Below are positions 30,370-53,505 of a stretch of 64,000 nucleotides of DNA, piece by piece. Within the stretch, counting starts at the first letter, position 1. The number at the start of each line of letters is the position of its first letter. Source of the stretch: Betaproteobacteria bacterium (GTDB taxonomy: Bacteria > Pseudomonadota > Gammaproteobacteria > Burkholderiales > Burkholderiaceae_D); the NCBI GenBank assembly GCA_025356395.1, contig JANXTA010000084.1, positions 14,659-78,658 on the forward strand, given 5' to 3'. The translations under genes were made by a program, and so were the position numbers. The notes beneath the pieces were generated by a model. It was not told where the DNA came from, ran no database searches, and was given only the letters and a program-made list of their open reading frames with translations.

Positions 30370-30565
30370 GAGGTTTCGCAGCGAGGTGGGGAACGAGGAG
30401 GCCGGCGACAGGCGTTTGGTAGAATGCGGCCGCAGTCTAGCAGCGCCGCCGGCCTCCGCCCCGCGCATCGCGCGCTTGCTCCCCGACTCGACATCCGACG
30501 CCGCTCCGCGGTCAATCCGGGGCGAACGACAACAAAGCTCGCGCCCTACCCCAGAAGCCGCCCCT

Positions 30566-39303: not shown

Positions 39304-40664
39304 AGATCGCGTTGTTCGTCCACTGTTTCTTCCCCACGCATTTCTACGGGACCGAGACGTACACGCTGCAACTCGCGACGCGATTGCGCGAAGCCGGTCT
39401 CGACGTGTTCGTCGTCTCGGCGATCTTTCCGGGGGAGCCCGGGCAATCGACCCTGGTCGAACGCTACGAAGTCGAGGGCATTCCGGTGTTGTCGTTCGAC
39501 AAGAACGTGATTCCCAACACGCGCATCAAGGACACCTACTACCAGGAAGCCATGCGCGTTCCCTTGAGAACGCTGCTGCTCGAAGAGAAGCCCGACCTGA
39601 TCCACGTCACGCATCTGGTCAACCATACCGCGGTGTTGCTGGAGGTCGCGAAGGAGCTCGGCATTCCGTGCGTCGCGACCTTCACCGATTTCTTTGGCTT
39701 CTGCTACAACAACAAGCTCGAAGGTGCCGACGGCGAGCTGTGCGCGGGTCCGTCATCGAGCCGCCGCAACTGCATGGCCTGTCATCTCAAGGCGGTCGCT
39801 GGTCAGCCCGCCGTGACAAAGCCCGTGCAGTGGGCCGCTCGTGTCGGCGCCAATCCTCTGGGCGCACTGGTTCTCGACAAGGCCCGCAAGCTGAACGCGT
39901 ATCGCCACGGCGAAGTGGATGGATTGGTCGAAGACCTTCGGCAACGACCGGACATACTGGCCGCCTGCTATGCGCACTACCAGGCCGCGATCGCCCCGAC
40001 CCGGTTCCTCGAGCAGGCCTATCGCCGCAACGGCTTCACGAAGCCGATGACACGCTCCTGGTTCGGCGTCGACTTCGATCGTCGGCCCAAGACAGCCAGG
40101 ACTCCTGAAAACCCGGTCGTGTTCGGCTTCATCGGCCAGCTAGCCCCCCACAAGGGAACCGACCTGCTGATCGAAGCGTTCAACCGCTTGCCCGCCGGCC
40201 GCGCGGAGCTGCACATCTATGGTCCGGCCGACCAGGACCCGGCATTCATGAAGCGACTCGAGGCGCTCGCGAAGGGGCGGGCCGTAAGCTTTCTCGGCAC
40301 GTTCGAGCAGCATCGCACCCGAGCCGTCCTCGATACGTTCGATCTGCTGGTGATCCCGTCGCGGTGGTACGAGAACAGCCCTCTCGTGTTGCTCAACGCG
40401 CTAGCCAGTCACACGCCTGTCCTGGTCTCGGATGTGGAAGGACTGACCGAGTTCATCGAAGAAGGCGTCAACGGTTATGCGTTCGAGCGCGGTGACGTCG
40501 GCTCGATCTCCGCCTGCCTGCGGCGCTTCATCGACGACCCGATGCTGGCCACCCGCATGAGCGCGGTAACGTCCTACGAGCGCGACACGAAGGCCACCGC
40601 GGACGACGTGATTGCGCTGTACGAGCAGATCGCTCCGCGGCATTTCTCGATGGCGCAGGCGTGA
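39300..40664 (+). CDS. Family 4 (group 1) glycosyltransferase
   Basis: MKIALFVHCFFPTHFYGTETY N-terminus and the C-terminal EGLTEFIEEGVNGYAF E-x7-E-like region. ATGA overlap with the preceding gene. Confidence 0.75.
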   Translation: MKIALFVHCFFPTHFYGTETYTLQLATRLREAGLDVFVVSAIFPGEPGQSTLVERYEVEGIPVLSFDKNVIPNTRIKDTYYQEAMRVPLRTLLLEEKPDLIHVTHLVNHTAVLLEVAKELGIPCVATFTDFFGFCYNNKLEGADGELCAGPSSSRRNCMACHLKAVAGQPAVTKPVQWAARVGANPLGALVLDKARKLNAYRHGEVDGLVEDLRQRPDILAACYAHYQAAIAPTRFLEQAYRRNGFTKPMTRSWFGVDFDRRPKTARTPENPVVFGFIGQLAPHKGTDLLIEAFNRLPAGRAELHIYGPADQDPAFMKRLEALAKGRAVSFLGTFEQHRTRAVLDTFDLLVIPSRWYENSPLVLLNALASHTPVLVSDVEGLTEFIEEGVNGYAFERGDVGSISACLRRFIDDPMLATRMSAVTSYERDTKATADDVIALYEQIAPRHFSMAQA

Positions 40665-40704: not shown

Positions 40705-41727
40705 TCAACGAACCAGCTTGCGTGACGGCTTGAACACGAGATAGACGACACCGCCGACCACGCTCCAGACCGACGACAGCGCGAAGAAGATCAGCGAGAA
40801 AAGGATGGCGGTTTCCGGGCCGTTACGACTCGCCGCCGCGTGGTCCGTGTTCAACGTGATCAATCCATACACAGCGAACATGAAGACGAAGATGCCTTCG
40901 CGCACGCCGTGCCCGCCGATGCTGATCGGCAAGCTGATGACGCAGGTGGCAACCGTGAAGATCTCGAGCATCTCGATGTAGGTGACCGATAGCCCGATGC
41001 CACGCGCGATGCACCAGCCGGCCGCGATCACCACGAAGGTCAGTGCGAACGCCGCGACGATGGCGCCAAGGGTGTCCTTCCACGCGACGTAGTGCGCCCG
41101 ATAGCCCGTCACGAACAGCGAAGCGATATGCCGCCGAGGTACGCGAGCCCATAGCCGCATCGCCCAGTCCGGACTTCGATGGAAGGGCCACAGGCCGACG
41201 ATGATGGCCGCGAGGACCAGGACGATCGACACCGACACCAGCGTCGACACGACCGAACGCAGTTCGGGATGCTCGGCCATCTCCCGGTATTGCCACGGGA
41301 GAGTCGCTATCGAGGACGCCAGCAAGGCAGCCAGACCCAGGATGCGATCGAGAAGGATCGACAGCGTCGCGTTGGTCCGACGATTCGGTGCGTAAGGCAG
41401 GATCATCAGCGTCTTCACGACGTCGCCACCCACTGCTCCCAACATGAACGCATTGAAGAACTGCGCGATATAGGTCAGCGCGACGCTCGCGCCGAACGGC
41501 ACAGCGATCTTCTGGACGCGCAGGAGGAACCACCAGCGCACGGCCGACATCAGGTAGGCGATCCCGAGCAGACCGCAGGCCACCAGCAACCAGCCTGGTT
41601 TTGCTCGATCGAGCCGCCCCCAGAGGTCGTTCCAGCGAATGGTCGCGACGAAATAGGTGAGGACCAGGACCGTCACGGTGGCGCGCAACCAGGTGCTGCG
41701 CAGTAACCCGATGAGGACCCGCATCAC
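40705..41727 (-). CDS. UPF0104 / lysylphosphatidylglycerol-synthase-TM-region family membrane protein (flippase-like)
   Basis: 340-aa protein with ~8 TM segments. N-terminus LRATVTVLVLTYFVATIRWNDLW...GWLLVACGLLGIAYLMSAVRWWFLL is typical of this family. Last gene of the minus-strand operon. Confidence 0.6.
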   Translation of the reverse strand: MMRVLIGLLRSTWLRATVTVLVLTYFVATIRWNDLWGRLDRAKPGWLLVACGLLGIAYLMSAVRWWFLLRVQKIAVPFGASVALTYIAQFFNAFMLGAVGGDVVKTLMILPYAPNRRTNATLSILLDRILGLAALLASSIATLPWQYREMAEHPELRSVVSTLVSVSIVLVLAAIIVGLWPFHRSPDWAMRLWARVPRRHIASLFVTGYRAHYVAWKDTLGAIVAAFALTFVVIAAGWCIARGIGLSVTYIEMLEIFTVATCVISLPISIGGHGVREGIFVFMFAVYGLITLNTDHAAASRNGPETAILFSLIFFALSSVWSVVGGVVYLVFKPSRKLVR

Positions 41728-41776
41728 TCCCGGAACCGTGCGCTGGCTACCAGGCGGTGAACTCTCCGCGCTGCGC

Positions 41777-43342
41777 TCATGCGCGAGCGGGCTTGGGCCG
41801 CGCTGCGTAGAGCAACTGATAGCCGAAGAACGCGGGGAACAGTCGCGTAAGTACCGCGAGGGTGCTGTTGGCCAGCTTCATCAACGGACTGGAAGGCGAC
41901 AAGCCGAACGCTAACTCGATCGGAATCACGCTCGCCTTCTGTTGAAGGATCTCGTAGCCGGCGGCCTCGATAAATCGTCGCGCGCTCGACTTCGTGAAGA
42001 ATCGGACATGCGTGCGGTCGAGGATGCCGCGCTCCTGGTATTCGAAGCGGCCGAACAGCAGGGACAGACGGACCGTGACGTTCGCGACATTCGGGACGGA
42101 GATCAGGACCTGGCCCGCATTGTTCAGCAGCTGCTTGCACTGCAGAAGGACGTTCTCAGGGTTGCGAACGTGCTCGAGAATGTCCTGCAGCAAGATGCGG
42201 TCGAAGCGATGCGTGGCGAGCCGCATCATCACCGCCTCCGAGAACCCCTCGTCGAGATCCGCCTGCACGAAGTCGAGCATCAGGTTGGCGTTGCGCGACG
42301 TAGGGATCATGTCGACGCCGACCACCCGATTGCCCGCCTCCACGACATCGCTGGAGAAGAACCCTTCGCCGCAACCGACGTCGAGCACGGTCTTGTTGCT
42401 GCCGATCCAGCGCTTGAAGTATTCGTAGCTCGATCGCCGGCTTTCCTTCACCGGATAGTGGACGAAGTACTCCTTGTATTCGGGGTACACCGCGAGCGAC
42501 TTCGCGGTCTGCCGATAGCGGTAGACCGACAGGAAGACGTCCTGCGCATAACGCACCCCGTCGACGTAGCAGATCTCGTCGCCGTAATAGGTCGGGATGG
42601 GTACCTCGATGATCTTGTAGCCCTGGTGATGCAGCTTGATGATGATCTGCGTGTCGAAATGGAACACGTTCGTCATCTCGGAAAAATCGATGTGCTGCAG
42701 GGCATGCAGGTCATAGGCGCGGTAGCCGCTATGGAACTCGGTCAGCGTCAGGCCGAGCGCCTTGTTCTCGACGTAGGTGAGGATCTTGTTGCCCACTAGC
42801 TTGTAGAGCGGCATGCCGCCCTTCAGCGGCCCCCCGTAGGTGGACATCATTCGAGAACCGAATACGGCATGTGCCTCGCCGGCCACGAGCGGCGCATACA
42901 TGCTGGCCAGGATCTCGGGTGCGTACTGCCCGTCTCCATGCAGCAGGACCGCGATGTCGAAGCCCTTGGCCGCGAAGTAGTCGTAGCCAGCCTTCTGGTT
43001 CCCGCCGTAGCCGAGGTTCTTCTCGTTCTTGATGACGGTCAGCTTCTCCAGGTTCGACAGCACCTTGAGACCCATCGCCATCTGATAGGTATGGTCCCGG
43101 CTCGCGTCGTCGAAGATCACGACTTCTTCGACCTGTTCCCAGACGTCCGTCGGGATGCGCTCGAGCACCTTGGCGATCGTGGAGACCGCGTTGTAGGCGA
43201 CGATCAGGATGCCGATGCGCTTGCCGCGGGCGTCGCAGATCTCAACGCGCGGTGTGGAATACAGCTTGCTACGTACCAGCCCGGTCTCGGTTATCGCGCT
43301 ATCTAGGTGGAACGAGGAAGAGTTGATCAGCTTATCGGACAA
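41777..43342 (-). CDS. Fusion of a DPM1-like GT2 (putative polyprenyl-phosphate glycosyltransferase) and a class I SAM methyltransferase
   Basis: GT2 part: GILIVAYNAVSTIAKVL, VVIFDDASRD, VLLHGDGQY. C-terminal part: VLDVGCGEGFF, ILLQDILEHV. No obvious TM hairpin. Confidence 0.75.
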   Translation of the reverse strand: MSDKLINSSSFHLDSAITETGLVRSKLYSTPRVEICDARGKRIGILIVAYNAVSTIAKVLERIPTDVWEQVEEVVIFDDASRDHTYQMAMGLKVLSNLEKLTVIKNEKNLGYGGNQKAGYDYFAAKGFDIAVLLHGDGQYAPEILASMYAPLVAGEAHAVFGSRMMSTYGGPLKGGMPLYKLVGNKILTYVENKALGLTLTEFHSGYRAYDLHALQHIDFSEMTNVFHFDTQIIIKLHHQGYKIIEVPIPTYYGDEICYVDGVRYAQDVFLSVYRYRQTAKSLAVYPEYKEYFVHYPVKESRRSSYEYFKRWIGSNKTVLDVGCGEGFFSSDVVEAGNRVVGVDMIPTSRNANLMLDFVQADLDEGFSEAVMMRLATHRFDRILLQDILEHVRNPENVLLQCKQLLNNAGQVLISVPNVANVTVRLSLLFGRFEYQERGILDRTHVRFFTKSSARRFIEAAGYEILQQKASVIPIELAFGLSPSSPLMKLANSTLAVLTRLFPAFFGYQLLYAARPKPARA

Positions 43343-43397
43343 GACCGCAGTCTCCTACAAGGTCTGCCGAAAACGACAAAGACCGTTACAGCATCGG

Positions 43398-45761
43398 CTA
43401 TTTTGCAATGCTAGATGGTTGGCGCTCTACGGGTGGCAACGGCAGGAGAACACGGACGTCACCCCAGTCTCTCGGGCCGCGATCGGCCCGGAGAATTGTC
43501 TCACCTTTACCTCGATACAGACCGATCGCAACCTGCGTGACGTCGTCCGGCGGCGTGAAGGACGTCGTCACATAGCGGCTCGCGGTCGGGACCGGCGAAG
43601 GTTCGAGTGGGCCGAGCGCGATGTCGCGATCGACAATAGGGTTGCCCCGAGCGTCGGTCAGATGTACGAGCACGGCCCAGTCGTCGTCGGCGACGTGCGG
43701 CCGCAGCCAAAGATTCAACGTGACGCGTCCGTTACGATCCCGCATCAGTCCGGCGCCCCGCATCGTGAACAAGGCTTCGAACTCGATGTCTTGCACGTGA
43801 CCCTTGAGGTCGGCGAGAGCCGCTTCAACCTGGTCATCGGTCCACCACCGCTGCGGATTCGCGGCCGAAAAGACGGCGCGCCATCGATGAGTCGCAATCA
43901 GCCACTCGAACGATGCCGTGAGTCGTGCGTGGTTATCGACGCGCAGCAATCGTGAATGGGGAGCACTCGCCACCACAACGATCCCTTCGTTGGCCCCCAG
44001 CGATGCGGCCCAGTGCCGGACGACACCCGCTTCGACTTGGAATGTTGCCACGTCGGCGGTATCGACGAGCGCCAACGAAGGATCGAACAGGAGATAGTCG
44101 GAGCCGACGATTTCGTCGCGGCGGTAAGCAGACGGTCGCTGCCAGTCGATTGGTCGCTTTACCTCGAATCGTGGCGTCGCGGCAACGAGGGATTGCGCAT
44201 TGAATACCGCGTCAAACATCGCATCGTTTGCATCAAGATCAATCGCATAAACGGTCACCGTTGTAGATGCGCCGGTCGCACCGTGCGCTACGAGCGAACG
44301 CGCCTGTTCAAGGCCGGCCAGGTCGATCCCCGAACGGACGTTGACGCCGCTCGCGCTCTGCCATATGGCAGCGGGGTCCGGCAGTGCCAGCAGAACTGTC
44401 GTGTTGGCAATGCCCACGGCCATCCACGATGCGATCGCCCGCTTCATCGGACGCGGCGCCGCTGCCGTGGCGCGCATTAGCGGCGGCAGCGCGACCATCA
44501 TCGCAACGTACAGGAACGGCGGGAAGTAGCGGACCTGCGTTTGGCCGCCCGACCCGAACAACCAGAACCAGACGCCGATCGCTGTGACCGCGAGCGCCAT
44601 CGCGATGAGTTGCCATTCGCTGCGCTTCGCAATTGTCCTGTCTAGGCGCCACACGATGACGGTCGCGGCGATCCCGATCGGGAAGAATGGTCCGAGCGCG
44701 TGATAGGTAATCTGGAGCAACTCAGCAAAAGGTGGACGCAGCTCCGCGCGCATCACCTGCACTGCTGCCTGTCCGTACATGAGATTGCCCGCGTCGAGAT
44801 ACGCCACGCGTGTCGCCAGAAGCACGGCGCCGCCAATCACGGCAATGTGCGCGAACACAACGAGCGTGGCCGCCTTCACCACTGCGCCACGCTCTCGACG
44901 GTCTGCGCGGCCGGTGCAGATAGTCCAGCCGACTATCGCAATCGCCGCGACGAGCGCAGCGAGCGGCACGCCAGTCGGTTTGACGAAGATGCCGAACGAC
45001 GCGACCAGGGCCGACGCGAGTCCCCAGGCTACACGTCTGTCCACCACGCTGCGGACCGCACAAGCGCTCGCGAGCGAAGCGACCGCGGTCATGAACCCGT
45101 CAACGAATCCCCATTGCGGCAGACCGATCTTCGCGCCGTCGTAGAGGTCGAACTGGAAGAAGATCGGCAACGTCGCAAGGAAAGCGGCGACGATCGGTGA
45201 CGCCGCTCGGGCTGCGGGCGGCAGGCTTCGGCTCCTTCCAACCACGAGTGTCGCGATGAAGACCAGTACGAGCGGCACAAAGACGGAGCGGAAATAGAAC
45301 GCATGCACATCGGGCTGGAAACCCCAGGGATACGACATCGCAACGGTTCCGATCGGTCTGAACGTCGGTTCGACCGACTGCAGCACGCCGAGCTCGATAC
45401 GACCCGCTTCGATCGCAGCCCATACGTTCCGCGCTTTCAGGTAATAAGTAAACGCGTCGTAGGAAGGCGGCTGCACGGTCGCATGTGCGTGCATCCACAC
45501 GAACGCGCCCACCAGCGCGAGCCACGCAAAGCCTGCCGCGAGTCCGGAGTTGCGCGAGAGACGCGGCCGCGCACTCACAAGCGCGCGTGGGTGATCGACG
45601 CCTTGGCGGATCGAGTCAAGTGCGTAATGCGCCAGGCTAAGCGCGCAGCAAGCCAGCGTTGCGCAGATCGCGCAAGACACTGTCGATGAGATCGGACAGC
45701 TTCGAACGTATGAACGGCGGCGCCAAACTGCTCGCGCCGTCATTGAACTTGAATTCACCAC
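43398..45761 (-). CDS. GT-C-like polytopic membrane protein with large C-terminal periplasmic domain, paralog 1
   Basis: Multiple hydrophobic segments. It shares the motifs PPSYDAFTYY, FRPIGTVAMSYPWGF, GFVDGF, VKPTG and GGQTQVRYFPPF with 47259..49505 and 49474..51768. The start is uncertain: the track start overlaps the upstream gene by 125 nt, and an in-frame GTG lies at 45578. Confidence 0.6.
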   Translation of the reverse strand: MVNSSSMTARAVWRRRSYVRSCPISSTVSCAICATLACCALSLAHYALDSIRQGVDHPRALVSARPRLSRNSGLAAGFAWLALVGAFVWMHAHATVQPPSYDAFTYYLKARNVWAAIEAGRIELGVLQSVEPTFRPIGTVAMSYPWGFQPDVHAFYFRSVFVPLVLVFIATLVVGRSRSLPPAARAASPIVAAFLATLPIFFQFDLYDGAKIGLPQWGFVDGFMTAVASLASACAVRSVVDRRVAWGLASALVASFGIFVKPTGVPLAALVAAIAIVGWTICTGRADRRERGAVVKAATLVVFAHIAVIGGAVLLATRVAYLDAGNLMYGQAAVQVMRAELRPPFAELLQITYHALGPFFPIGIAATVIVWRLDRTIAKRSEWQLIAMALAVTAIGVWFWLFGSGGQTQVRYFPPFLYVAMMVALPPLMRATAAAPRPMKRAIASWMAVGIANTTVLLALPDPAAIWQSASGVNVRSGIDLAGLEQARSLVAHGATGASTTVTVYAIDLDANDAMFDAVFNAQSLVAATPRFEVKRPIDWQRPSAYRRDEIVGSDYLLFDPSLALVDTADVATFQVEAGVVRHWAASLGANEGIVVVASAPHSRLLRVDNHARLTASFEWLIATHRWRAVFSAANPQRWWTDDQVEAALADLKGHVQDIEFEALFTMRGAGLMRDRNGRVTLNLWLRPHVADDDWAVLVHLTDARGNPIVDRDIALGPLEPSPVPTASRYVTTSFTPPDDVTQVAIGLYRGKGETILRADRGPRDWGDVRVLLPLPPVERQPSSIAK

Positions 45762-47187
45762 GCTGATGCGATTCGAACAGCGCCTGCACGAAATCCTGCT
45801 TTGCCCGCGTGCCGTCCATCAAGGTCAGCAGCTTCAGATGGAGGTGATCCATCGTCGAGCCCTGGTGTCCCTTGACGGTGACGACGGAACCGAACTGCGC
45901 TTCCGCGCGAGCCGCGCGAGAAACCTTCGGTCGCTCGTCGATAACGTTGTAGTCGACCAGCGGCGGGTCGATCACCAGCCGCAGGAGACCCCCACTGAAG
46001 GCCTCGATGATGCGCGACAGGAGCGTACCGCGCCATTCGCCGTCCGAAAATGGCAGATCGACACGGGGAACGCCGGCGACCACGTCCTCGACTTTGGCGG
46101 TCATCGGCAGCATTTCGGCAAGGAACCTGAGGAGGCTTTTGAGGACTGGATCGGTGGTTTCGACCTGCTGGCCCTGGATCGTCGATAACTTCAGGAGGCC
46201 GTTGTCCGGCCGAAACTCGGAGATCGCCACGCTACTCACGAAGGTCGGAAAGACGTAGAGCGGCGCGAGACGTTCCGTATCGATCTGTCGATTGATCGGT
46301 GCGGTTGAATGCACGAGCAGGCTCTGCCGAAATGTCCGCGCGCGCAGGAAGTCGAGATACTGCTCGTACTCGACGAAGTTCTTCGCCAGCTTGCCAATGA
46401 TGCCGACGACTTCCGGCGCCAGAAAATTCGTCAACATTGCGCTCAGCTCGACCTCCGCAAGGTATTCTAGTCCATGGACGTGAACGCGATTGACGAACTC
46501 GTGGAATTGAACCGCCTCGTTCTCGCGTTCGAGATATTCGTGCGTGAGGTAGTAGTCCTGAAACTTTGATAGCCGCGTCGAGGTCTCCCGCAACAGCTGG
46601 CCGTAAGGCGTATCGGCAGGGCTGTACTTCGAGAGGAATTCGAGGATCGCGCGAGCGTGCGGGACCTTCTCGGCCTCGGGCATGTCGCGCGTATGGAACA
46701 ACATCACGTCCCGCACGATGCCCGCGAGATTCCACCCGGGCAACACGTTGTAGCTGACGTATGCAACGCCGTTGTCAACGAGATTGCGCGAACAGACCCG
46801 AAGCAGCGCATCTTGCATGTCCTTCGGAATCCACGAATAGACCCCGTGCGCGATGATGTAGTCGAACTTGCCATCGGCGTCCGTGATATCGCCGATCGAT
46901 CGATGTGCGAGTTCAAGATTCCGCAGGCCGCACGCGGCAACGCGTGTGCGACCGGTCGCGATCTGCTTGGCCGAGTAGTCGATGCCGACGAAATGCGCGT
47001 CGGGATACCCCTCGGCCATCGCGAGCAGATTGTTCCCGGTCGCACAACCGAGCTCGAGGATTCGCGCGCCGTACAGGCTCGGCGGCTTCAAACCCATCAG
47101 ATAGGCCATTGTGGCCAAGCGCGTCGGATGCGTATGCGTGTGGGCTGACGCCTCGTAGGCGATCGAATCGTATGAAGCGGAGGACAT
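45637..47187 (-). CDS. SAM-dependent methyltransferase with C-terminal predicted methyltransferase regulatory domain
   Basis: N-terminus SYDSIAYEASAHTHTHPTRLATMAYLMGLKPPSLYGARILELGCATGNNLLAMAEGYPDAHFVGIDYS is characteristic of the family carrying the MethyTransf_Reg domain. 516 aa. Confidence 0.75.
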   Translation of the reverse strand: MSSASYDSIAYEASAHTHTHPTRLATMAYLMGLKPPSLYGARILELGCATGNNLLAMAEGYPDAHFVGIDYSAKQIATGRTRVAACGLRNLELAHRSIGDITDADGKFDYIIAHGVYSWIPKDMQDALLRVCSRNLVDNGVAYVSYNVLPGWNLAGIVRDVMLFHTRDMPEAEKVPHARAILEFLSKYSPADTPYGQLLRETSTRLSKFQDYYLTHEYLERENEAVQFHEFVNRVHVHGLEYLAEVELSAMLTNFLAPEVVGIIGKLAKNFVEYEQYLDFLRARTFRQSLLVHSTAPINRQIDTERLAPLYVFPTFVSSVAISEFRPDNGLLKLSTIQGQQVETTDPVLKSLLRFLAEMLPMTAKVEDVVAGVPRVDLPFSDGEWRGTLLSRIIEAFSGGLLRLVIDPPLVDYNVIDERPKVSRAARAEAQFGSVVTVKGHQGSTMDHLHLKLLTLMDGTRAKQDFVQALFESHQRGEFKFNDGASSLAPPFIRSKLSDLIDSVLRDLRNAGLLRA

Positions 47188-47258
47188 GGTCGACTGGAAG
47201 TTGAGCGCGATCTCGTTCGTCGCGCCGCCGAATTATACGAGGGCCTCTCAACGCTTGT

Positions 47259-49505
47259 TCAGCGAGGCGTCACAATCAACCGGATGCCGTTCCAGTCTCG
47301 AGGCCCTCGGTCGGCCTGCAACGGCACCTCGTTTGAGCGGAGAATCCCGATCGCCAGCCGGCCGTCCGCGTTTGCGGACGGACTACGCACCTTGCAAGTG
47401 AGCAATAGGATGCGGTCGCCCTCGGCAGATTGGACGCGGTTGTACTGCAGGGGCACGTACTGGTCGGCAACCACCCGTCCGCTCGCGTCGATCGAGTGGA
47501 CGAATAGCACCCAGTCCTGTTCGGTCATCGTCGCCAATGGCTGCCACCACACACGAAGCGTCGTCTCGCCACCGACACGGACTGCATCGACGGCGCGCAC
47601 TAGGAAGCGGTCTCCGAAGCGCACTTCGTGCAACTGTGGATCCGAACCTACGACCGCGGCGGCGAGCATGTCGTTCGTGAGCCGGTTGGGCAAATTAGCC
47701 GCGACGAACACGGGCCGCCAGCGATGTGCCGCATACAGCTTGCCGAACGCGCGCTCGAGCGCGGCGTGGTCGGTCACGCGTAGGATGCGCGCCGCCGGGC
47801 TCTCGCTTACGATTTCGACGCCATCATCGGCCGTGAGCCGCGCGGCCCATGCGAGGATCAACGCGCGCTCCTCGTCGATATTTTCGATGCTCGCCTTATC
47901 AAGTACCTGCCTCGCGATCGCCGGCTTGACCGGCACAATCACCCAAAAATCGGAATCCGCCATTTCCTGGAAGCGATATGCAGTCGGCCGTACGTTGTCG
48001 CCTGGTACCCGAAGCGATATGCGAATGCCGCGCGGCTGCACATGGCGGGAATAATCGACGACGGCCTGGAAGCTCGCCTGAACCGAATCCAACGAAGCGA
48101 GGTAGACGGTCGCGTCGTGTCCCTCGACAACGACTTGGTCGACGAACGCATTCACCTGCGTATTCACGCTGCCGGCTTCGCCGACGGCGATATGGACACC
48201 GCTAGCCATTTGCCACCGCAGAGAGGCGTGCGGGACTGCGAGGATCAATATCAGATTGACGCCCGGCAACAGCAGCAGGACGAACAGTCCGTTCCACACG
48301 ATGGCCGGCGCATGGACAAGCGACCGCTGTAGCGCGGGCAACGCGATGATCGCGCCCATCAGTGCGAACGGAACAAAGTAGCGGATCTGTGTAACCCCAC
48401 CGGATCCGTACAACCAGAACCACATGCCGAAGGCGATCACGGCGAGCGCGGCCGCACCTAGCCAAGCTCCCTCGCGGCCGCCGCAGGCAGCTTCGGCATC
48501 GGGAATGGCTCGTCGCACGTACACGACGATCAAGAATGCCGTGGCAACCATCCACGCGACGAACGGAAAACCGACGCCGATGTTGACTATCGTCAAGAAG
48601 ACGGGCCACGTGAGGATTTCCTCGCTGCGCATCAGTAGGATCGCCCCGGCACCGAAGTCGAAGTTCTCCGCCGACAGATAGCGCGAGCGGAGTGCCACAA
48701 CGAGGATGCCAACCGCTGCCACAGCGTAGACGGCTGCGCCGATCGCAACGAACCGAAGCGCATCGCGACGCTTGGCTGGATTCTTCCAGTCAACGCGCCC
48801 ACGCAGTGCAGATATCGCGAACCAGACTAAGCCGACCACTGCCATCACAACGAAGCCGGAAGGCTTGATCGTCGCTGCGACTACGCAGAGCACGGCTGCG
48901 GTCACCACCCAGCCGATCGACCGGCTCGCCGTGCTTCGCAACGCAGCAGCGATCGCAAGCGCCGAGATGCCGCCGAGAAAGTTGTCGACTAGGCCCCAGT
49001 GAGAGATCGACGGGATGTCCGGTGCCACCTCGAAAAAGTAGAAAGCGGGCATCGTCGACAAGAACATGGCCACCGCGGCGACGAAGCGCTGCGCGCGCGG
49101 TTCCGCGCTCGATCGGTAGGCGACGACCAGCACCGAGAAGCACACGAGCATCGCAGGCAACCAGACGGACCGCAGGTAGAAGCCGCGATAGTCGAGATCA
49201 AATCCGAATGGATACGACATCAAGACCGTACCGGGTGGCCGAAAAGTCGGGGCCACGTCGAACGGATTGAATGCTTTTTGCGTGGCGAGCTCCTGCCAAA
49301 TGTTCTGCGCCTTCTGGAAGTAGGTAGCCGCATCGTAGATCGGCGGTTGGTCGCTTCGCCGTGCGTGCTGCCACACGAGCTCACCGAGAAGAGCGAGCCA
49401 TAACGCGACGACAAGGAGCACGTAGCGGGAAGTTACGGACCGAAGGAAAATCACAGCGGACGATGCATGAAGTTCAAGGCAATGGGACGAGCACGCGTCG
49501 GCCAC
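47259..49505 (-). CDS. GT-C-like polytopic membrane protein with large C-terminal periplasmic domain, paralog 2
   Basis: Motifs PPIYDAATYF, FRPPGTVLMSYPFGF, GLVDNF, IKPSG, GGVTQIRYFVPF. C-terminal ADRGPRDWNGIRLIV. Confidence 0.6.
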   Translation of the reverse strand: MADACSSHCLELHASSAVIFLRSVTSRYVLLVVALWLALLGELVWQHARRSDQPPIYDAATYFQKAQNIWQELATQKAFNPFDVAPTFRPPGTVLMSYPFGFDLDYRGFYLRSVWLPAMLVCFSVLVVAYRSSAEPRAQRFVAAVAMFLSTMPAFYFFEVAPDIPSISHWGLVDNFLGGISALAIAAALRSTASRSIGWVVTAAVLCVVAATIKPSGFVVMAVVGLVWFAISALRGRVDWKNPAKRRDALRFVAIGAAVYAVAAVGILVVALRSRYLSAENFDFGAGAILLMRSEEILTWPVFLTIVNIGVGFPFVAWMVATAFLIVVYVRRAIPDAEAACGGREGAWLGAAALAVIAFGMWFWLYGSGGVTQIRYFVPFALMGAIIALPALQRSLVHAPAIVWNGLFVLLLLPGVNLILILAVPHASLRWQMASGVHIAVGEAGSVNTQVNAFVDQVVVEGHDATVYLASLDSVQASFQAVVDYSRHVQPRGIRISLRVPGDNVRPTAYRFQEMADSDFWVIVPVKPAIARQVLDKASIENIDEERALILAWAARLTADDGVEIVSESPAARILRVTDHAALERAFGKLYAAHRWRPVFVAANLPNRLTNDMLAAAVVGSDPQLHEVRFGDRFLVRAVDAVRVGGETTLRVWWQPLATMTEQDWVLFVHSIDASGRVVADQYVPLQYNRVQSAEGDRILLLTCKVRSPSANADGRLAIGILRSNEVPLQADRGPRDWNGIRLIVTPR

Positions 49506-51768
49506 CCCAGTCGAGCCGCCCCCGATCGGCTACGAGCAATCCGTTGGCGGCCGCAGCAGGTTGATAGATACCAAAGGCGATCGCAGTCGCCTTCGAAAGC
49601 GTCGCTCGAGTGTCGAAGGTCACGGTGTCGTAGTGCCAAGTCCGATCGGACGAGGGCGGAGTCTGCACGTGGAGTTGAATCTGGAGGTTCTTCAGCAACG
49701 CACCCGAGTCGTCGACGAGGTGCAGGAAGAGGTAGCGAGTTGCCGCGTTGTCGGTTGTCTGCAACGGCTCCCACCACGCTTCCACCTTGAGGCCTTCGCT
49801 CGTGCTTGTCAGTGCCATCGCATGCACGACGAACGCGTCACCAAATCGAATGTTGCTCGTGCGCACTTGTGGCAACTTGGCGGCCAGGTCTTCCGCGTTC
49901 CACCATCGTTGCGCGGTGGGCAGGTTTGCGGCGTGGAACTCCGGACGCCACTCGTGCTCCGCGACGAACGCGTTTACCGCGTGCGCGAACACCGTCTCGT
50001 CGACGATCTCGAGCAGCCGCAGGTGCTGGCCATGAAGCAAGACCTTGAACCCCGCGCGCTCGTCCAGTTGCGAAAGGCGAGCATCGAATGCTGCCAGTTC
50101 GGCCTGAAAGGTCTGAAGGGAGTGAGGCGATGTGAGGTCCACGGCCGCATCAACATCGTAATTCCGATGCAACACGTAACGGCTGCCGGCGAGCTCCGCG
50201 GTCCGTATTGCGAACCCTCGGTTCCAGTCCATCGGATCGCGTGGCGAAAAGCTCGGCAGCTCCGGGTGCAGGATCTTCTCGTACACCCCGACGTTGACGA
50301 AGAAGTGCGACGGCGCTCCGTACGAAAAGAAGTAGACCTCCTGGTCGGCCCCGCCACGACGAACTCTGTCAAGGAAGCGATAGCCCTGATCCACGTCGTC
50401 ACGACCATGCCCTACGGAGACGCTGACGCCGGTGTAGTACTGCCAATTATCGGACGGCCTGTCGCCCGACGCGAGCAGGGCGGCGATGTTCACGGCGGGT
50501 GCGACGGCCGCCGTCATGGCGACCCAGCGCAACATGCGCGGCGCGCACGACCATACGGCGACTGCGAGCGGCACCGTCAGGATCAATCCCATCAGCACGA
50601 ACGGATGGAAATAGCGAATCTGGATTCCGCCGCCTTGCGGAACGAACCAGTACCAAAGGCCGAGGATCCACACCACAACGCTGCCAATCGCAAGGCCCAA
50701 GGCCCAATGCTCGGTGCGGCGGATCGTTGGCGAGCAGGCCGCGACCACGAATGTCGTGGCGATCCACAGCGGCATGACTTCGCCCAGGCTCAGATGAAAC
50801 ACGAGCACCGATGGCCCGGCCGTGACGCTCTTGTAGAAGCCCAGCGCACGGATCGCCCAATTGAAATTGTCCGACGAGAGATAGTTGGAGAACCAAGCAG
50901 CCGCAACGAACCCGACGAACACCACGACGATGATCGCCGCACTACCCGCCGCATAGAGAACGAGGGCGCACAGCGGCTTGTGCGCGACGCGAACGCGCCG
51001 TATTTCGACGAGAACAAGACTCAGCGAGATCAAGCACATGAGCCCCATCAACATCAGGCCTGACTGCTTGATCGTGAACGTGAGTCCGAAGAGAAGTGCG
51101 CTCGCCAACTGCCAAGCAAGCGATCGGTCGACAAGCGTTCGTACCATCGCCGACGCAGCGAGCGCTGCGATGCCGGCCTGGAAGTTGTCGACCATCCCGA
51201 AGCCATTGTTGATCCAGCGCTGATCGTTCCAGTCGAACCAGTAAAACAGCGGCAACGTGGAGTACAGAACAGCGATCGAGAAAACCCACCACGGCGCGCG
51301 TCCAACGGCTACGCGACCCGCCGCGATATAGACAGCAACAACGGTACAGAGAATAGGTAGAAATACAGAACGGAAATAGAACCCGTGGAAGTTCTCGGTT
51401 ATTCCGAAAGGATAAGACATCAGGACAGTACCCGGCGGCCGGATCGTGGGTTCCAGATCGAATGGATTGAACCAGTGACCGTCGTGCACCGCGTTCCAGA
51501 ACGCTACGGCCTTTTGCAGGTAGGTAATGGCATCCCCCCAAGGTGTCTGCACGCTGTGCGAAGCGTGGGTCCAGATCTCGAAACCAAGATAGGACAACCA
51601 AGCAACGATGGCGAGCGCCGGCATCCAGGCATAGCGCGTCACGCGCGAGGACGCGCCGAACGGGTGGTCAAGCGTCGAAAGTTGTGAATGGCTCACGGCG
51701 GCTTCATGGGACGCGTGGACGACCCGGAAGAGACGAAGGTTTGGCGTTGCGAGGCGCGCGAAAGACAA
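49474..51768 (-). CDS. GT-C-like polytopic membrane protein with large C-terminal periplasmic domain, paralog 3
   Basis: Motifs TPWGDAITYL, IRPPGTVLMSYPFGI, GMVDNF, IKQSG, GGIQIRYFHPF. C-terminal ADRGRLDWGGRRVLV. First gene of the minus-strand operon. Confidence 0.6.
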   Translation of the reverse strand: MSFARLATPNLRLFRVVHASHEAAVSHSQLSTLDHPFGASSRVTRYAWMPALAIVAWLSYLGFEIWTHASHSVQTPWGDAITYLQKAVAFWNAVHDGHWFNPFDLEPTIRPPGTVLMSYPFGITENFHGFYFRSVFLPILCTVVAVYIAAGRVAVGRAPWWVFSIAVLYSTLPLFYWFDWNDQRWINNGFGMVDNFQAGIAALAASAMVRTLVDRSLAWQLASALLFGLTFTIKQSGLMLMGLMCLISLSLVLVEIRRVRVAHKPLCALVLYAAGSAAIIVVVFVGFVAAAWFSNYLSSDNFNWAIRALGFYKSVTAGPSVLVFHLSLGEVMPLWIATTFVVAACSPTIRRTEHWALGLAIGSVVVWILGLWYWFVPQGGGIQIRYFHPFVLMGLILTVPLAVAVWSCAPRMLRWVAMTAAVAPAVNIAALLASGDRPSDNWQYYTGVSVSVGHGRDDVDQGYRFLDRVRRGGADQEVYFFSYGAPSHFFVNVGVYEKILHPELPSFSPRDPMDWNRGFAIRTAELAGSRYVLHRNYDVDAAVDLTSPHSLQTFQAELAAFDARLSQLDERAGFKVLLHGQHLRLLEIVDETVFAHAVNAFVAEHEWRPEFHAANLPTAQRWWNAEDLAAKLPQVRTSNIRFGDAFVVHAMALTSTSEGLKVEAWWEPLQTTDNAATRYLFLHLVDDSGALLKNLQIQLHVQTPPSSDRTWHYDTVTFDTRATLSKATAIAFGIYQPAAAANGLLVADRGRLDWGGRRVLVPLP

Positions 51769-51920: not shown

Positions 51921-51950
51921 CGAAAAAAAAGGCGGCCGAGGCCGCCTTTT
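51921..51950 (-). terminator. Strong rho-independent terminator after the 503-aa secreted-protein gene
   Basis: The minus strand reads AAAA GGCGGC CTCG GCCGCC TTTTTTTT, about 43 nt past the stop at 51994. A-tract and T-tract flanks make it potentially bidirectional. Confidence 0.75.
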
Positions 51951-51993
51951 CAAGATTTGACTCTTTACACCTCCAACCAATCGAAACAACCGA

Positions 51994-53505
51994 TCAGGGG
52001 GGGTTGTTGCCGGTGTTGAACGTGTCCAGCGTCGTCAGCGTACCGCCGGGATTGGTCAGCAACGTCTGGACATAGATCGTCGTCGTGGCCGTGAAGCGCA
52101 GACGCGGACGGGTCGAGGCGGGAACTGCACCAACTGCGGCTTCGATATCCGAAGACGAGAAGATGTGAGCACCACCCGCAGGAATCGTGAAATTCAACGG
52201 TCCCGGAGTTCCCGGCACGCCGTTTTCCTGGATTACCTGAACGCTAGGCGTTGCTGCCAGCGAACCGGTGTTGACCACGCGGAAGTAAGACACATAGCCG
52301 CCACCAGTGGCTGCCGGCACGTACGTCGGAATTCCGACGATGCCGCCATTCGGTCCGAGCGGGTACAGCGAAGTCGACGCCGGTGCGCTGGTCGAGGAAC
52401 CACCCACACCGGAGAACGTTACCGAAGACACGACCGGCGTCGTCGAAGCGATCTGCGTGTTGGCGTCGGTGTTGGCGATGAAGTAATACTGAGTGCCCGC
52501 CGTCGTCGATGTACCGCCGTCGATCGAGCCTGCGACCGGGGCAGTCACGAGCGGAATATTCGTGAACGTGATGGACGAGGCCGAAATCGACGTTGCCGGG
52601 GTTGCGCCGGCGATTGCGCTCGGGGACGTCGAAAGCTGGAAGGACGGCGTGCCGGCGGTGGTCGTCGTGGCGAACGACGGGAAAGAACCGGCCACCGTGA
52701 ACGACACCTTGGTTGCGATGTCGGTCGCGTTGGCGACCGCAGTACCGTCCGCCTTAAATAGGTTTGGAGCCAGCGTCACCTTCAGACTACCGAAGTCGAT
52801 CAGGGTTTGCGAACTGGTCAGGGAAGCGGCAGTCAGCAAAGCGCCGTTCTTCGAACCAGCGCCGATCACGTCGATCTTCTGCGTTTCAGTACCAACACCA
52901 GTCGGGCCGAACGGCAAGCCGGAATTCGACGCCACGACCGTAACCGTGAACGGATTCACCGAAATGGCGACCGGGCCATTGCTACCAGCGTCCGCATCCG
53001 AAGCCTGAAAAGTCGTCGATGGATTGTTACCGAGGCTGACCGTTGCGGTGATCTGCTGTCCCGGCGTTCCGAGCGCACCAGTGCTGCCCGCGATGACCGC
53101 GGAAGCTTCCGGCACATAGGTGATCGTCGAGTTGATCGGCGCCGCGGCCGACGTCGTCGTGATCGGCACGTAGAAGAACGTGTTGTCGGCACTGATCACC
53201 GGGGTACCGAAGGACAGACCCGTGACGGCTCCACCTGCAGGCTGCGAGAGCGTAAAGTCACTCGTTGCCAGCTTCGCCGGATCGAACTTCGAAGCGTTGT
53301 CGAGCCTGACATACAGATACCGCGTGAGGCCCGGAGCCAACGGCGCAGAAATTGCGTAGGAAACCGGTGCCACCGTGAGTGCGGGAGTACCGAAAATCGA
53401 CGCCGGGAAAGAACGCGGAGTCACCGAAATGGTACCCGCCATACTGGGTGCCGCGACGGCGCCGAAGGCCAGTGCGACAGCTACGTTCAGTGCTTTTTGT
53501 TTCAT
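51994..53505 (-). CDS. Secreted Thr/Ser/Ala/Gly/Pro-rich protein of unknown family (S-layer-like or surface structural protein candidate)
   Basis: Signal peptide MKQKALNVAVALAFGAVAAPSMA|GT. The mature part has no Cys or Trp, a single His and few charged residues, with long runs such as TTTSAAAP, FATTTTAGTPSF and GGSSTSAPASTS. AGGA lies upstream of the ATG, and the gene has its own terminator. Confidence 0.75.
   Translation of the reverse strand: MKQKALNVAVALAFGAVAAPSMAGTISVTPRSFPASIFGTPALTVAPVSYAISAPLAPGLTRYLYVRLDNASKFDPAKLATSDFTLSQPAGGAVTGLSFGTPVISADNTFFYVPITTTSAAAPINSTITYVPEASAVIAGSTGALGTPGQQITATVSLGNNPSTTFQASDADAGSNGPVAISVNPFTVTVVASNSGLPFGPTGVGTETQKIDVIGAGSKNGALLTAASLTSSQTLIDFGSLKVTLAPNLFKADGTAVANATDIATKVSFTVAGSFPSFATTTTAGTPSFQLSTSPSAIAGATPATSISASSITFTNIPLVTAPVAGSIDGGTSTTAGTQYYFIANTDANTQIASTTPVVSSVTFSGVGGSSTSAPASTSLYPLGPNGGIVGIPTYVPAATGGGYVSYFRVVNTGSLAATPSVQVIQENGVPGTPGPLNFTIPAGGAHIFSSSDIEAAVGAVPASTRPRLRFTATTTIYVQTLLTNPGGTLTTLDTFNTGNNPP

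What the first reader, a model, noticed from the sequence alone, without database searches (positions are those of the whole stretch)
40705..51768. Expanded three-component periplasmic glycosylation operon: GT2-methyltransferase fusion, flippase-like protein, second methyltransferase and three GT-C-like enzymes
Six co-directional minus-strand genes with short gaps or overlaps run from 51768 down to 40705. The GT2 half of 41777..43342 (IVAYNA, FDDASRD, LLHGDGQY) resembles polyprenyl-phosphate sugar synthases (DPM1/ArnC/GtrB/CsbB type). Instead of the usual C-terminal TM hairpin it carries a class I SAM methyltransferase. 40705..41727 belongs to the UPF0104/LPG-synthase-TM family, which has been proposed to flip lipid-linked sugars. 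The three big membrane proteins have GT-C hallmarks. The established three-component systems (GtrA/GtrB/GtrC, ArnC/ArnEF/ArnT, CsbB/GtcA/YfhO) use one GT-C per lipid-linked donor. Here a single donor synthase sits with three paralogous transferases and two methyltransferase activities, and I do not recognise that configuration as described. Two acceptors are plausible: the polysaccharide made by the convergent operon ending at 40664, or the Ser/Thr-rich secreted protein encoded immediately upstream at 51994..53505.
Basis: partly seen in the sequence, partly recalled or inferred. Interest (0 to 1): 0.7.

Follow-up and report, generated by a model that had tools for sequence, protein, structure and literature searches.

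The report
Periplasmic O-antigen glycosylation module, unannotated GT-C family
Next to an O-antigen export operon sit genes that look like a known kind of system for adding sugars to a polysaccharide outside the cytoplasm, but built from unusual parts: three membrane transferases of a family no database annotates, and a sugar-lipid synthase fused to a methyltransferase.

Summary
The six co-directional minus-strand genes are real, with short gaps once three over-long ORF starts are corrected.

- **Membrane proteins (722, 731, 726 aa).** They match no Pfam, NCBIfam or PDB sequence. A confident AlphaFold model (pLDDT 87.6) matches only GT-C glycosyltransferases: STT3, PglB, ArnT, Emb, Aft. It also has a C-terminal beta-sandwich resembling Wzt carbohydrate-binding domains.
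- **GT2 half of the 521-aa fusion.** Its closest structures are ArnC, DPMS and GtrB, all polyprenyl-phosphate sugar synthases.
- **340-aa protein.** It is a UPF0104 (MprF-flippase-like) protein.
- **Comparative genomics.** Of 32 related loci with at least 4 kb on both sides, 26 carry a GT2/methyltransferase fusion in either domain order. 22 carry wzm/wzt/WbdD-like/GT4 genes. None of the 53 loci carries the 503-aa protein.

The best reading is a three-component periplasmic modification of the ABC-exported O-polysaccharide, possibly with a methylated sugar.

The "second methyltransferase" is a full-length homologue of Rickettsia protein-lysine methyltransferase PKMT1. In relatives it pairs with the 503-aa protein beside the type II secretion genes, not with the glycosylation module. 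One donor synthase serving several GT-Cs already has precedent.

The three GT-Cs belong to separate old clades and are not recent duplicates. I rate this a new variant of a known kind. No step has been shown biochemically.

The parts
49474..51642 (-). GT-C-fold membrane protein, paralogue A (722 aa)
   Evidence: 33% identical to B over its full length. It keeps the family-invariant residues D41, Y45, K48, R95, D157, K197, R358 and Y359 in B numbering. In the NJ tree it groups with L040 and the A-type clade. No Pfam or NCBIfam hit.
47259..49454 (-). GT-C-fold membrane protein, paralogue B (731 aa, = P0001)
   Evidence: AF2 model pLDDT 87.6, pTM 0.83. Foldseek top hits are STT3, PglB, ArnT, EmbA/B/C, AftA, AftB and Pmt1/2. 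The C-terminal beta-sandwich hits Wzt carbohydrate-binding domains. No sequence hit in Pfam or PDB, even with a profile.
43398..45578 (-). GT-C-fold membrane protein, paralogue C (726 aa)
   Evidence: 34% identical to B. Invariant residues are kept. It groups with L013, L021 and L022. Its orthologue follows the PKMT gene in L071.
41777..43342 (-). GT2 (about residues 43-290) fused to a class I SAM methyltransferase (about 300-521); candidate polyprenyl-phosphate (methyl)sugar synthase
   Evidence: Pfam Glycos_transf_2 and Methyltransf_23. NCBIfam best hits AglJ and PpgS. AF2 model pLDDT 79. Best GT2-domain structural matches are ArnC, DPMS and GtrB; the MT half matches 3cc8. hhalign to ArnC E 2.5e-5. 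At least 8000 homologues at about 60-90% identity.
40705..41724 (-). UPF0104 / LPG_synthase_TM (PplT) membrane protein; candidate flippase for the lipid-linked donor
   Evidence: PF03706 4.2e-34 and TIGR00374 'flippase-like domain'. About 8 hydrophobic segments. It is next to the GT2-MT gene in L003, L009-L013, L040 and L054.
45637..47187 (-). PKMT-family methyltransferase (516 aa); probably not part of the glycosylation module
   Evidence: MethyTransf_Reg and PKMT_2nd domains. PKMT1 5dnk E 1.5e-82 and PKMT2 2.9e-71. Absent from 53 of 53 related loci. It directly follows the p503 homologue in L070 and L071.
51922..51951 (-). Intrinsic terminator after the 503-aa gene; upstream boundary of the six-gene unit
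   Evidence: GGCGGCC-loop-GGCCGCC followed by T8. Folding energy -19.4 kcal/mol, z = -4.0, 0 of 200 shuffles as stable.
51994..53505 (-). 503-aa secreted Ser/Thr/Ala/Gly-rich protein (p503), associated with the type II secretion genes
   Evidence: Signal peptide and 26% Ser+Thr. Its homologues lie beside type II secretion genes in L070, L071 and L072. K73 is invariant in the family.
33988..40664 (+). Convergent O-polysaccharide genes: wzm, wzt (with Wzt_C), MT-MT-GT4 (WbdD-like) and GT4; the likely source of the acceptor
   Evidence: Pfam assignments. Orthologues of these genes flank the GT-C family in 22 of 32 well-flanked loci.

Best explanation
This is a three-component system that modifies the ABC-transporter-exported O-polysaccharide after polymerisation, on the periplasmic side. 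Proposed steps: (1) On the cytoplasmic face, the GT2 domain of the 521-aa fusion transfers a sugar from a nucleotide sugar to undecaprenyl phosphate. (2) The fused SAM methyltransferase methylates that sugar before it leaves the cytoplasm, the only compartment that contains SAM. (3) The UPF0104 protein flips the lipid-linked donor. (4) The three GT-C-fold enzymes use the donor in the periplasm to decorate the O-polysaccharide made by the convergent wzm/wzt/WbdD-like/GT4 operon. Their C-terminal beta-sandwich domains would hold the polymer. The three enzymes belong to three old subfamilies, so they probably make three different linkages or act at three positions. What is shown here by computation: the folds and domain identities, conservation of candidate catalytic residues on the periplasmic side, and gene co-occurrence across phyla. 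What is inferred: the lipid carrier, the sugar, what the methyltransferase methylates and when, flipping by UPF0104, and the acceptor. The PKMT-like gene is read as a separate function that has ended up inside the operon, most likely lysine methylation of the neighbouring 503-aa secreted protein.
For: GT-C fold: AF2 model pLDDT 87.6. The 22 best Foldseek hits are all GT-C enzymes (E 7e-6 to 2e-3; ArnT target-normalised TM-score 0.49-0.51). Family-invariant D41, Y45, K48, R95, D157, K197, R358 and Y359 are kept in all three paralogues. By helix parity in the model they all lie in periplasmic loops or helix ends; this is my inference. The C-terminal domain hits Wzt carbohydrate-binding domains (8dky, 6o14, 2r5o; probability 1.0). 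This parallels the polysaccharide-binding module of the GT136 enzyme ORF12 (PMC11127046). Donor synthase: best GT2-domain structural neighbours are ArnC, DPMS and GtrB; ArnC hhalign E 2.5e-5; NCBIfam AglJ and PpgS. Coupling: 26 of 32 well-flanked loci of the GT-C family carry a GT2/MT fusion within 10 kb. Across all 53 loci, 8 have the GT2-MT order and 26 the MT-GT2 order. Fusion in both orders argues that the two activities work together. Acceptor: 22 of 32 well-flanked loci carry wzm/wzt/WbdD-like/GT4 genes, often clear orthologues of the window's (E down to 0). Flippase: UPF0104 sits next to the fusion in 11 of 32 loci. Archaeal UPF0104 genes neighbour AglD-like GT2 and PMT/STT3-like genes (PMC5898192). 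Precedent for altering a lipid-linked donor before flipping: undP-Ribf to undP-Xylf by ORF13 (PMC11127046).
Against: No biochemistry exists for any component. The GT-C family has no sequence-level link to any characterised GT, and TM-scores of 0.4-0.5 show fold class only. The GT2-MT fusion is far commoner (at least 8000 homologues) than this GT-C family (939 representative clusters), and it occurs alone in L062. It therefore does not depend on this partner. Only about a third of loci have UPF0104, whose experimentally supported cargo is phospholipid (PMC12713373 and the PplT preprint). Nothing shows that the methyltransferase acts on the lipid-linked sugar rather than on the nucleotide sugar, the polymer or something else. 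The inter-domain geometry of the fusion model is uncertain (pTM 0.58). In this lineage the GT-C genes always sit next to p503 (window and L071), so a protein acceptor is not excluded.
Confidence: 0.6

Rival explanations
1. The same donor pathway operates, but the acceptor is the 503-aa Ser/Thr-rich secreted protein. The GT-Cs would act as protein O-glycosyltransferases in the manner of PMT or PglL, and the PKMT would methylate the same protein's lysines. The whole p503-to-UPF0104 stretch would then be a maturation locus for a surface protein.
For: p503 lies directly upstream on the same strand. In L071 the order is p503, PKMT, C-type GT-C. In L070 the p503-PKMT pair is followed by non-homologous GT-C-like proteins (GT87-like, DUF6311) plus a methyltransferase and a GT2. 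In the window the PKMT gene lies between the GT-C genes. p503 is 26% Ser+Thr.
Against: p503 and PKMT are absent from all 53 other loci of the GT-C family, which instead track wzm/wzt/WbdD-like/GT4 genes. A strong terminator separates p503 from the GT-C genes. In L072 the p503 homologue sits with type II secretion genes and no PKMT or GT-C next to it. The GT-Cs carry a CBM-like domain resembling polysaccharide-binding Wzt domains. In this lineage the secretion/p503 unit simply abuts the variable end of the O-antigen cluster, which would explain the adjacency.
Confidence: 0.12
2. The three GT-Cs do not add single side-chain residues. Instead they polymerise or cap a second glycan domain on the exported polysaccharide in the periplasm, using one lipid-linked donor repeatedly, as the Emb and Aft enzymes do with decaprenyl-P-arabinose.
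For: Emb and Aft enzymes are among the structural matches. Three old, distinct subfamilies are combined here, as in mycobacterial arabinan assembly. Other loci carry 1 to 3 copies.
Against: Most loci have a single copy, which fits single-residue decoration better. Nothing in the sequence separates processive from single-addition enzymes.
Confidence: 0.15
3. The GT2-MT fusion and UPF0104 make and flip a methylated glycolipid that is itself the end product, a membrane-lipid modification like GpgSDF or MprF. The GT-C-fold proteins would use a different donor or have another role.
For: The experimentally supported and predicted cargos of UPF0104 are phospholipids and glycolipids. The GT2-MT fusion occurs without this GT-C family in many genomes.
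Against: The GT2 domain's closest structures are the polyprenyl-phosphate enzymes ArnC, DPMS and GtrB. GpgS, by contrast, is a GT4. 81% of well-flanked GT-C loci carry the fusion. Where the fusion lacks this family it often neighbours another unannotated polytopic membrane protein (L063 606 aa, L064 578 aa).
Confidence: 0.08

Closest known systems
Citrobacter youngae O1/O2 pentofuranose three-component system (ORF15 synthase, ORF14 MATE flippase, ORF12 GT-C, the founding member of GT136; PMC11127046)
   Same: Periplasmic decoration, after polymerisation, of an ABC-transporter-exported O-polysaccharide whose synthesis uses a WbdD-like terminator and a Wzt carbohydrate-binding module. The GT-C has about 11 TM helices, a small periplasmic domain after TM1 and a C-terminal beta-rich carbohydrate-binding module. 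The donor can be altered while lipid-linked (epimerase ORF13). ORF12's essential D31, partly required Y35, essential R349 and Y350 (whose Ala variant kept only trace activity) have a counterpart in this family's invariant D41, Y45, R358, Y359. The Asp-to-Arg spacing is 318 versus 317 residues.
   Different: The donor synthase is a UbiA-type PRPP-dependent enzyme there and a GT2-MT fusion here. The flippase is MATE or SMR there and UPF0104 here. E34 and H106 of ORF12 have no invariant equivalent here (T44; R95 lies nearby). The window enzymes have an extra alpha/beta domain of about 190 residues before the beta-sandwich. Direct sequence comparison was not possible.
GtrA/GtrB/Gtr* of Shigella and Salmonella, and Klebsiella GmlABC
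   Same: Both use a GT2 undecaprenyl-P-hexose synthase, a flippase and a GT-C. GmlABC also acts on an ABC-exported O-antigen (PMC11127046; PMC7556023).
   Different: GtrB has a C-terminal TM anchor and no methyltransferase. GtrA is a small GtrA-family protein. There is one GT-C per system. The GT-Cs there belong to annotated families.
ArnC/ArnD/ArnEF/ArnT
   Same: ArnC is the closest structural relative of the GT2 domain. The lipid-linked donor is chemically modified (deformylated by ArnD) before flipping, and a GT-C makes the final transfer.
   Different: The acceptor there is lipid A. ArnT shows no profile similarity to this family (hhalign probability 0.1). The flippase is SMR-like.
Rhizobium RgtE with RgtA-D/F, and mycobacterial decaprenyl-P-arabinose with Emb/Aft
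   Same: One lipid-linked donor serves several GT-C transferases (PMC7663294; the mycobacterial case is from general knowledge).
   Different: The genes are mostly dispersed, the GT-C families are different, and no methyltransferase fusion is involved.
Archaeal AglD (GT2 fused to UPF0104) with PMT/STT3-like neighbours (PMC5898192)
   Same: UPF0104 is genetically coupled to a Dol-P-sugar-type GT2 and a GT-C-like protein.
   Different: The system is archaeal N-glycosylation. The fusion partner of the GT2 is the flippase, not a methyltransferase.
Rickettsia PKMT1/PKMT2, which methylate lysines of the surface protein OmpB
   Same: The 516-aa product aligns with PKMT1 across the methyltransferase, regulatory and winged-helix domains (E 1.5e-82). 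It is genetically paired with an exported protein.
   Different: The putative substrate (p503) is unrelated to OmpB and is linked to a type II secretion operon. No activity data exist.

Membership tests
Three-component periplasmic glycosylation system (Gtr type) | Cytoplasmic GT-A/GT2 enzyme that makes a polyprenyl-phosphate monosaccharide | tested here: met
   Met at fold and sequence level only. ArnC, DPMS and GtrB are the best GT2-domain structural matches. ArnC hhalign E 2.5e-5. NCBIfam AglJ and PpgS. Activity was not tested.
Three-component periplasmic glycosylation system (Gtr type) | Dedicated flippase for the lipid-linked sugar | tested here: inconclusive
   A UPF0104 protein is adjacent (PF03706 4e-34). 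This family's supported cargo is phospholipid. It is present in only 11 of 32 related loci.
Three-component periplasmic glycosylation system (Gtr type) | GT-C-fold transferase with a conserved acidic residue in the first periplasmic loop | tested here: met
   (fold). Invariant D41 lies just after TM1 in all 33 aligned members and in all three paralogues.
Three-component periplasmic glycosylation system (Gtr type) | Demonstrated transfer of the sugar to a glycan in the periplasm | not testable with these tools
   Needs genetics, NMR and in vitro assays.
CAZy GT136 (C. youngae ORF12) | Significant sequence similarity to ORF12 or other GT136 members | not testable with these tools
   The ORF12 sequence could not be obtained. 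The supplement's alignment is an image. The accessions listed there are not in the held collections except one Rhizobium plasmid.
CAZy GT136 (C. youngae ORF12) | About 11 TM helices, a periplasmic domain after TM1 and a C-terminal CBM | tested here: met
   Secondary structure of the model. The beta-sandwich matches Wzt carbohydrate-binding domains.
CAZy GT136 (C. youngae ORF12) | Functionally important residues D31, E34, Y35, H106, R349, Y350 | tested here: inconclusive
   D41, Y45, R358 and Y359 are invariant with matching spacing. The E34 and H106 positions are not conserved as such. The comparison rests on numbering only, not on an alignment.
CAZy GT136 (C. youngae ORF12) | Partnered with a UbiA-type polyprenyl-phosphoribose synthase | tested here: not met
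   The partner here and in 26 of 32 loci is a GT2/MT fusion.
GT83 / ArnT and PMT-type GT-C families (Pfam PMT, PMT_2) | Match to the family profile | tested here: not met
   No Pfam hit at E up to 0.1 for the three proteins. Only 1 of 33 members hits PMT, at E = 2. hhalign against E. coli ArnT gives probability 0.1.
GtrB/DPMS/ArnC-type synthases | C-terminal transmembrane anchor | tested here: not met
   No TM segment beyond buried beta-strands. The C-terminal half is a soluble methyltransferase.
PKMT protein-lysine methyltransferases | MTase, MethyTransf_Reg and PKMT winged-helix architecture with full-length similarity to PKMT1/2 | tested here: met
   Lysine-methylating activity and substrate were not tested.
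UPF0104 / LPG_synthase_TM (PplT) | Match to PF03706 above the gathering score | tested here: met
   118.8 bits against a cutoff of 33.4.

The most novel reading that the evidence does not exclude
The GT2/methyltransferase fusion makes a methylated undecaprenyl-phosphate sugar, so the methylation happens on the lipid-linked monosaccharide donor. That would let O-methyl sugars be added in the periplasm, where no SAM is available. They would be added by a GT-C family that no database catalogues, which would found or greatly extend a CAZy family. The family has three old subfamilies of different specificity. Because the fusion is very widespread and highly conserved (at least 8000 homologues), and elsewhere neighbours other unannotated polytopic membrane proteins, this would be a general and overlooked route to methylated surface glycans.
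Probability: 0.35. Interest if true: 0.7.

Novelty: new variant of a known kind. Interest (0 to 1): 0.55.

Why it matters
Periplasmic three-component glycosylation drives O-antigen serotype diversity, and its GT-C enzymes are mostly annotated as hypothetical proteins. This locus defines a GT-C family of 939 representative clusters with no Pfam, NCBIfam or PDB sequence match. The family spans Proteobacteria, Nitrospirae, Acidobacteria, Verrucomicrobia, Marinimicrobia and Nostoc.

Comparative genomics ties it to a specific donor synthase that no paper I found describes. If the fused methyltransferase acts on the lipid-linked sugar, that would explain how methylated sugars can be installed outside the cytoplasm. 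It would also give a function to a very common "bifunctional glycosyltransferase/methyltransferase".

A cultured carrier, Variovorax humicola KACC 18501, makes this testable. Separately, the conserved pairing of a PKMT homologue with a secreted protein encoded next to type II secretion genes suggests that lysine methylation of exported proteins occurs outside Rickettsia.

Tried and rejected
1. **Sequence-level assignment of the three membrane proteins.** Pfam and NCBIfam, PDB phmmer and profile searches, Pfam on all 33 family members at E up to 10 and hhalign against E. coli ArnT gave nothing usable. Only structure prediction placed them.

2. **Direct GT136 membership test.** The alignment in the paper's supplement is an image. 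BK026208, CP099034 and CP110301 are not in the held collections. The one held record, Rhizobium plasmid NZ_CP032687, was read from 1 to 200 kb without finding the locus. I stopped there because the GT-Cs in that record are not stated to be GT136 homologues, so a result would have been ambiguous.

3. **Other collections.** tblastn of paralogue B against all plasmids found no match at E up to 1. The viral contig scan found no relatives. There is therefore no sign of a mobile or prophage-borne origin.

4. **Origin of the C-terminal domain.** The idea that the GT-C C-terminal domain derives from the window's own Wzt_C domain found no sequence support. The resemblance is at fold level only.

5. **Partners of the fusion elsewhere.** The large neighbours of GT2-MT in L063 and L064 show no profile similarity to this family. 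They are polytopic membrane proteins.

6. **RNA elements and promoters.** Rfam found no RNA element in the window. The promoter and terminator consensus scan was uninformative and missed the terminator that is plain in the sequence.

7. **3D clustering of invariant residues.** The model coordinates are not exposed to the scripting tool, so this could not be measured.

Full report
**Observation**

The window has 60-69% G+C. Between 40705 and 51768 it carries six minus-strand ORFs. Gene calls on identical public contigs and family alignments correct three starts. The genes are:

| Gene | Coordinates | Length |
|---|---|---|
| GT-C-like A | 49474..51642 | 722 aa |
| GT-C-like B | 47259..49454 | 731 aa |
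| PKMT-like methyltransferase | 45637..47187 | 516 aa |
| GT-C-like C | 43398..45578 | 726 aa |
| GT2-methyltransferase fusion | 41777..43342 | 521 aa |
| UPF0104 protein | 40705..41724 | 339 aa |

Gaps between them are 19 to 71 nt. Downstream and convergent lie rml genes, wzm, wzt with a Wzt_C domain, a 1167-aa MT-MT-GT4 (WbdD-like) protein and a GT4.

Upstream lies the 503-aa secreted protein (p503). It is followed by a strong intrinsic terminator. Beyond it is a divergent type II secretion operon.

**What the parts are**

The three large proteins are 33-34% identical to each other over their full length. They match nothing in Pfam, NCBIfam or PDB by sequence, even as a 33-member profile.

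An AlphaFold2 model of paralogue B is confident (pLDDT 87.6, pTM 0.83). It shows an N-terminal bundle of about 11 helices, with two short helices in the first periplasmic loop. An alpha/beta domain and a terminal beta-sandwich follow.

Against the PDB, its 22 best matches are all GT-C glycosyltransferases. They include STT3, PglB, ArnT (target-normalised TM-score about 0.5), EmbA/B/C and AftA. AftB and Pmt1/2 follow further down the list. The beta-sandwich separately matches the carbohydrate-binding domains of Wzt.

Family-invariant residues D41, Y45, K48, R95, D157, K197, R358 and Y359 are kept in all three paralogues. Counting helices from a cytoplasmic N-terminus places them all on the periplasmic side. 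That placement is my inference.

In the fusion protein, the GT2 half has ArnC, DPMS and GtrB as its best structural neighbours. All three are polyprenyl-phosphate sugar synthases. It aligns with E. coli ArnC at E 2.5e-5, with HGDGQYAPE opposite DADLQNPPE. It has no membrane anchor. Its C-terminal half is an intact-looking class I methyltransferase, closest to 3cc8. The 339-aa protein is a clear UPF0104/LPG_synthase_TM member.

**Relatives**

The GT-C family is rare but real. It has 40 word-indexed hits among 5.8 billion clusters, all "hypothetical". It has 939 representative clusters at E up to 1e-3 among 1.84 billion.

A scan of species-representative genomes returned 53 loci. They come from beta-, gamma-, delta- and alphaproteobacteria, Nitrospirae, Acidobacteria, Verrucomicrobia, Marinimicrobia and Nostoc. 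Most are metagenome-assembled genomes. Cultured carriers include Variovorax humicola, Nostoc sp. KVJ20 and Bosea sp. Root381.

I scored all ORFs of these loci against the window's proteins. Among the 32 loci with at least 4 kb on both sides:

- 26 carry a GT2/methyltransferase fusion.
- 11 carry UPF0104.
- 22 carry wzm/wzt/WbdD-like/GT4 genes, often strong orthologues of the window's.

Across all 53 loci the fusion occurs in both domain orders, GT2-MT in 8 and MT-GT2 in 26. The MT-GT2 form is usually followed by a separate 254-aa methyltransferase (20 loci). The PKMT gene and p503 occur in none of the 53.

GT-C copy number ranges from one to three. In a neighbour-joining tree the window's A, B and C fall in three different clades, each with orthologues in other genomes. 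The trio is therefore an assembly of old subfamilies, not a recent expansion.

The fusion enzyme itself is far more widespread, with at least 8000 homologues. The listed top hits are about 60-90% identical, and NCBI names some [quoted passage not shown]. Elsewhere it sits next to other unannotated polytopic membrane proteins, or alone.

**The second methyltransferase and p503**

The 516-aa protein aligns end to end with Rickettsia PKMT1 (E 1.5e-82) and PKMT2. Those enzymes methylate lysines of the surface protein OmpB.

Homologues of p503 lie beside type II secretion genes in three other genomes. In two of them the PKMT gene directly follows p503. In L071 the order is p503, PKMT, C-type GT-C.

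So p503-PKMT is a conserved pair of its own. In the window, GT-C genes A and B lie between the two. One lysine (K73) is invariant in the p503 family. I read the PKMT as acting on p503, not as part of the sugar pathway. This rests on association only.

**Mechanism**

The best-supported model is a three-component periplasmic modification of the ABC-exported O-polysaccharide:

1. The GT2 domain charges undecaprenyl phosphate with a sugar.
2. The fused methyltransferase methylates it in the cytoplasm.
3. UPF0104 flips it.
4. Three GT-Cs of different specificity transfer it to the polymer, which their C-terminal domains hold.

Folds, conserved residues and co-occurrence are shown computationally. 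The carrier lipid, the sugar, the target of methylation, the flipping and the acceptor are inferred.

The four rivals I considered are set out with evidence in the Rival explanations section:

- p503 as the acceptor
- Periplasmic polymerisation rather than single-residue branching
- A glycolipid as the end product
- Cytoplasmic roles for the fusion

**Comparison with known systems**

The closest described system is the C. youngae pentofuranose pathway (PMC11127046). It also acts on an ABC-exported O-polysaccharide with a WbdD-type terminator. Its GT-C (ORF12, founder of GT136) has 11 TM helices and a C-terminal module that binds the polysaccharide. Its donor is altered while lipid-linked.

ORF12's D31, Y35, R349 and Y350 correspond in spacing to this family's D41, Y45, R358 and Y359. 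This is a lead, not a test, because I could not obtain the ORF12 sequence.

The donor synthase and flippase there are of different families. That paper's supplement already mentions systems with several GT-Cs. RgtE serves several Rgt transferases. Archaeal UPF0104 genes neighbour AglD-like GT2 and STT3/PMT-like genes. The general architecture is therefore known.

What I did not find described in four relevant full-text searches is this GT-C family, the GT2/methyltransferase fusion as donor synthase, or their pairing.

**Verdict**

This is a new variant of a known kind of system, moderately interesting and readily testable. It also yields a side finding, the p503-PKMT pair, which may deserve its own follow-up.

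Noticed in passing
window 45637..47187 and 51994..53505; L070 3380..6566; L071 9680..13050: A PKMT-family (Rickettsia OmpB lysine methyltransferase-like) gene directly follows the homologue of the 503-aa secreted protein in two other genomes, always beside a type II secretion operon. This suggests lysine methylation of an exported protein outside Rickettsia. K73 is invariant in the protein family.
   Followed up: partly
window 51922..51951 (minus strand): A strong Rho-independent terminator (-19.4 kcal/mol, then T8) lies directly after the 503-aa gene. The consensus terminator scan missed it.
   Followed up: yes
L063 8001..11428; L064 6090..9524; L062 8001..9560: The GT2-methyltransferase fusion is very widespread and highly conserved. 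Outside this GT-C family it neighbours other unannotated polytopic membrane proteins (606 aa and 578 aa; the latter has a GDTSSYY motif after its first hydrophobic segment), or it stands alone. These may be further uncatalogued GT-C partners.
   Followed up: partly
L070 6618..13125: After the p503-PKMT pair, this genome carries a functionally similar but non-homologous set: a methyltransferase, a GT87-like protein with 12 hydrophobic segments, a DUF6311 membrane protein, another methyltransferase and a GT2. It looks like module replacement at the same chromosomal position.
   Followed up: no
L015 9914..14376 (Variovorax humicola KACC 18501): A cultured strain carries a compact version next to serS and not in an O-antigen cluster: one A-type GT-C, an MT-GT2 fusion in reversed domain order and a separate 254-aa methyltransferase. 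It is a convenient experimental model.
   Followed up: partly
L007 11841..13325 versus L008 7380..8864 (Nitrospirae): The GT2-MT gene is split into 84-aa and 369-aa pieces in one assembly and is intact (494 aa) in a near-identical contig. This is a frameshift or an assembly error. In both contigs a type II secretin gene follows the cluster.
   Followed up: no
family members P0029, P0215, P0218 and others: A sizeable subset of the GT-C family is only about 580-600 aa and matches profile positions 1 to about 592, so it lacks the terminal beta-sandwich. The CBM-like domain is therefore optional, as reported for ORF12.
   Followed up: no
window 27068..28977: A 301-aa GT2 (weak AglJ and Dol-P-hexose transferase-like hits) overlaps by 4 nt with a 335-aa GalE/RmlB-like epimerase/dehydratase. 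The pair lies between the LPS core genes and the rml genes. It could be a second lipid-linked sugar pathway or part of backbone synthesis.
   Followed up: no
window 28987..30873 (minus strand) and 30347..31645 (plus strand): The phosphoglucomutase/phosphomannomutase ORF has about 170 residues before its first domain and overlaps the rmlB ORF on the other strand. Its true start is probably further downstream.
   Followed up: no
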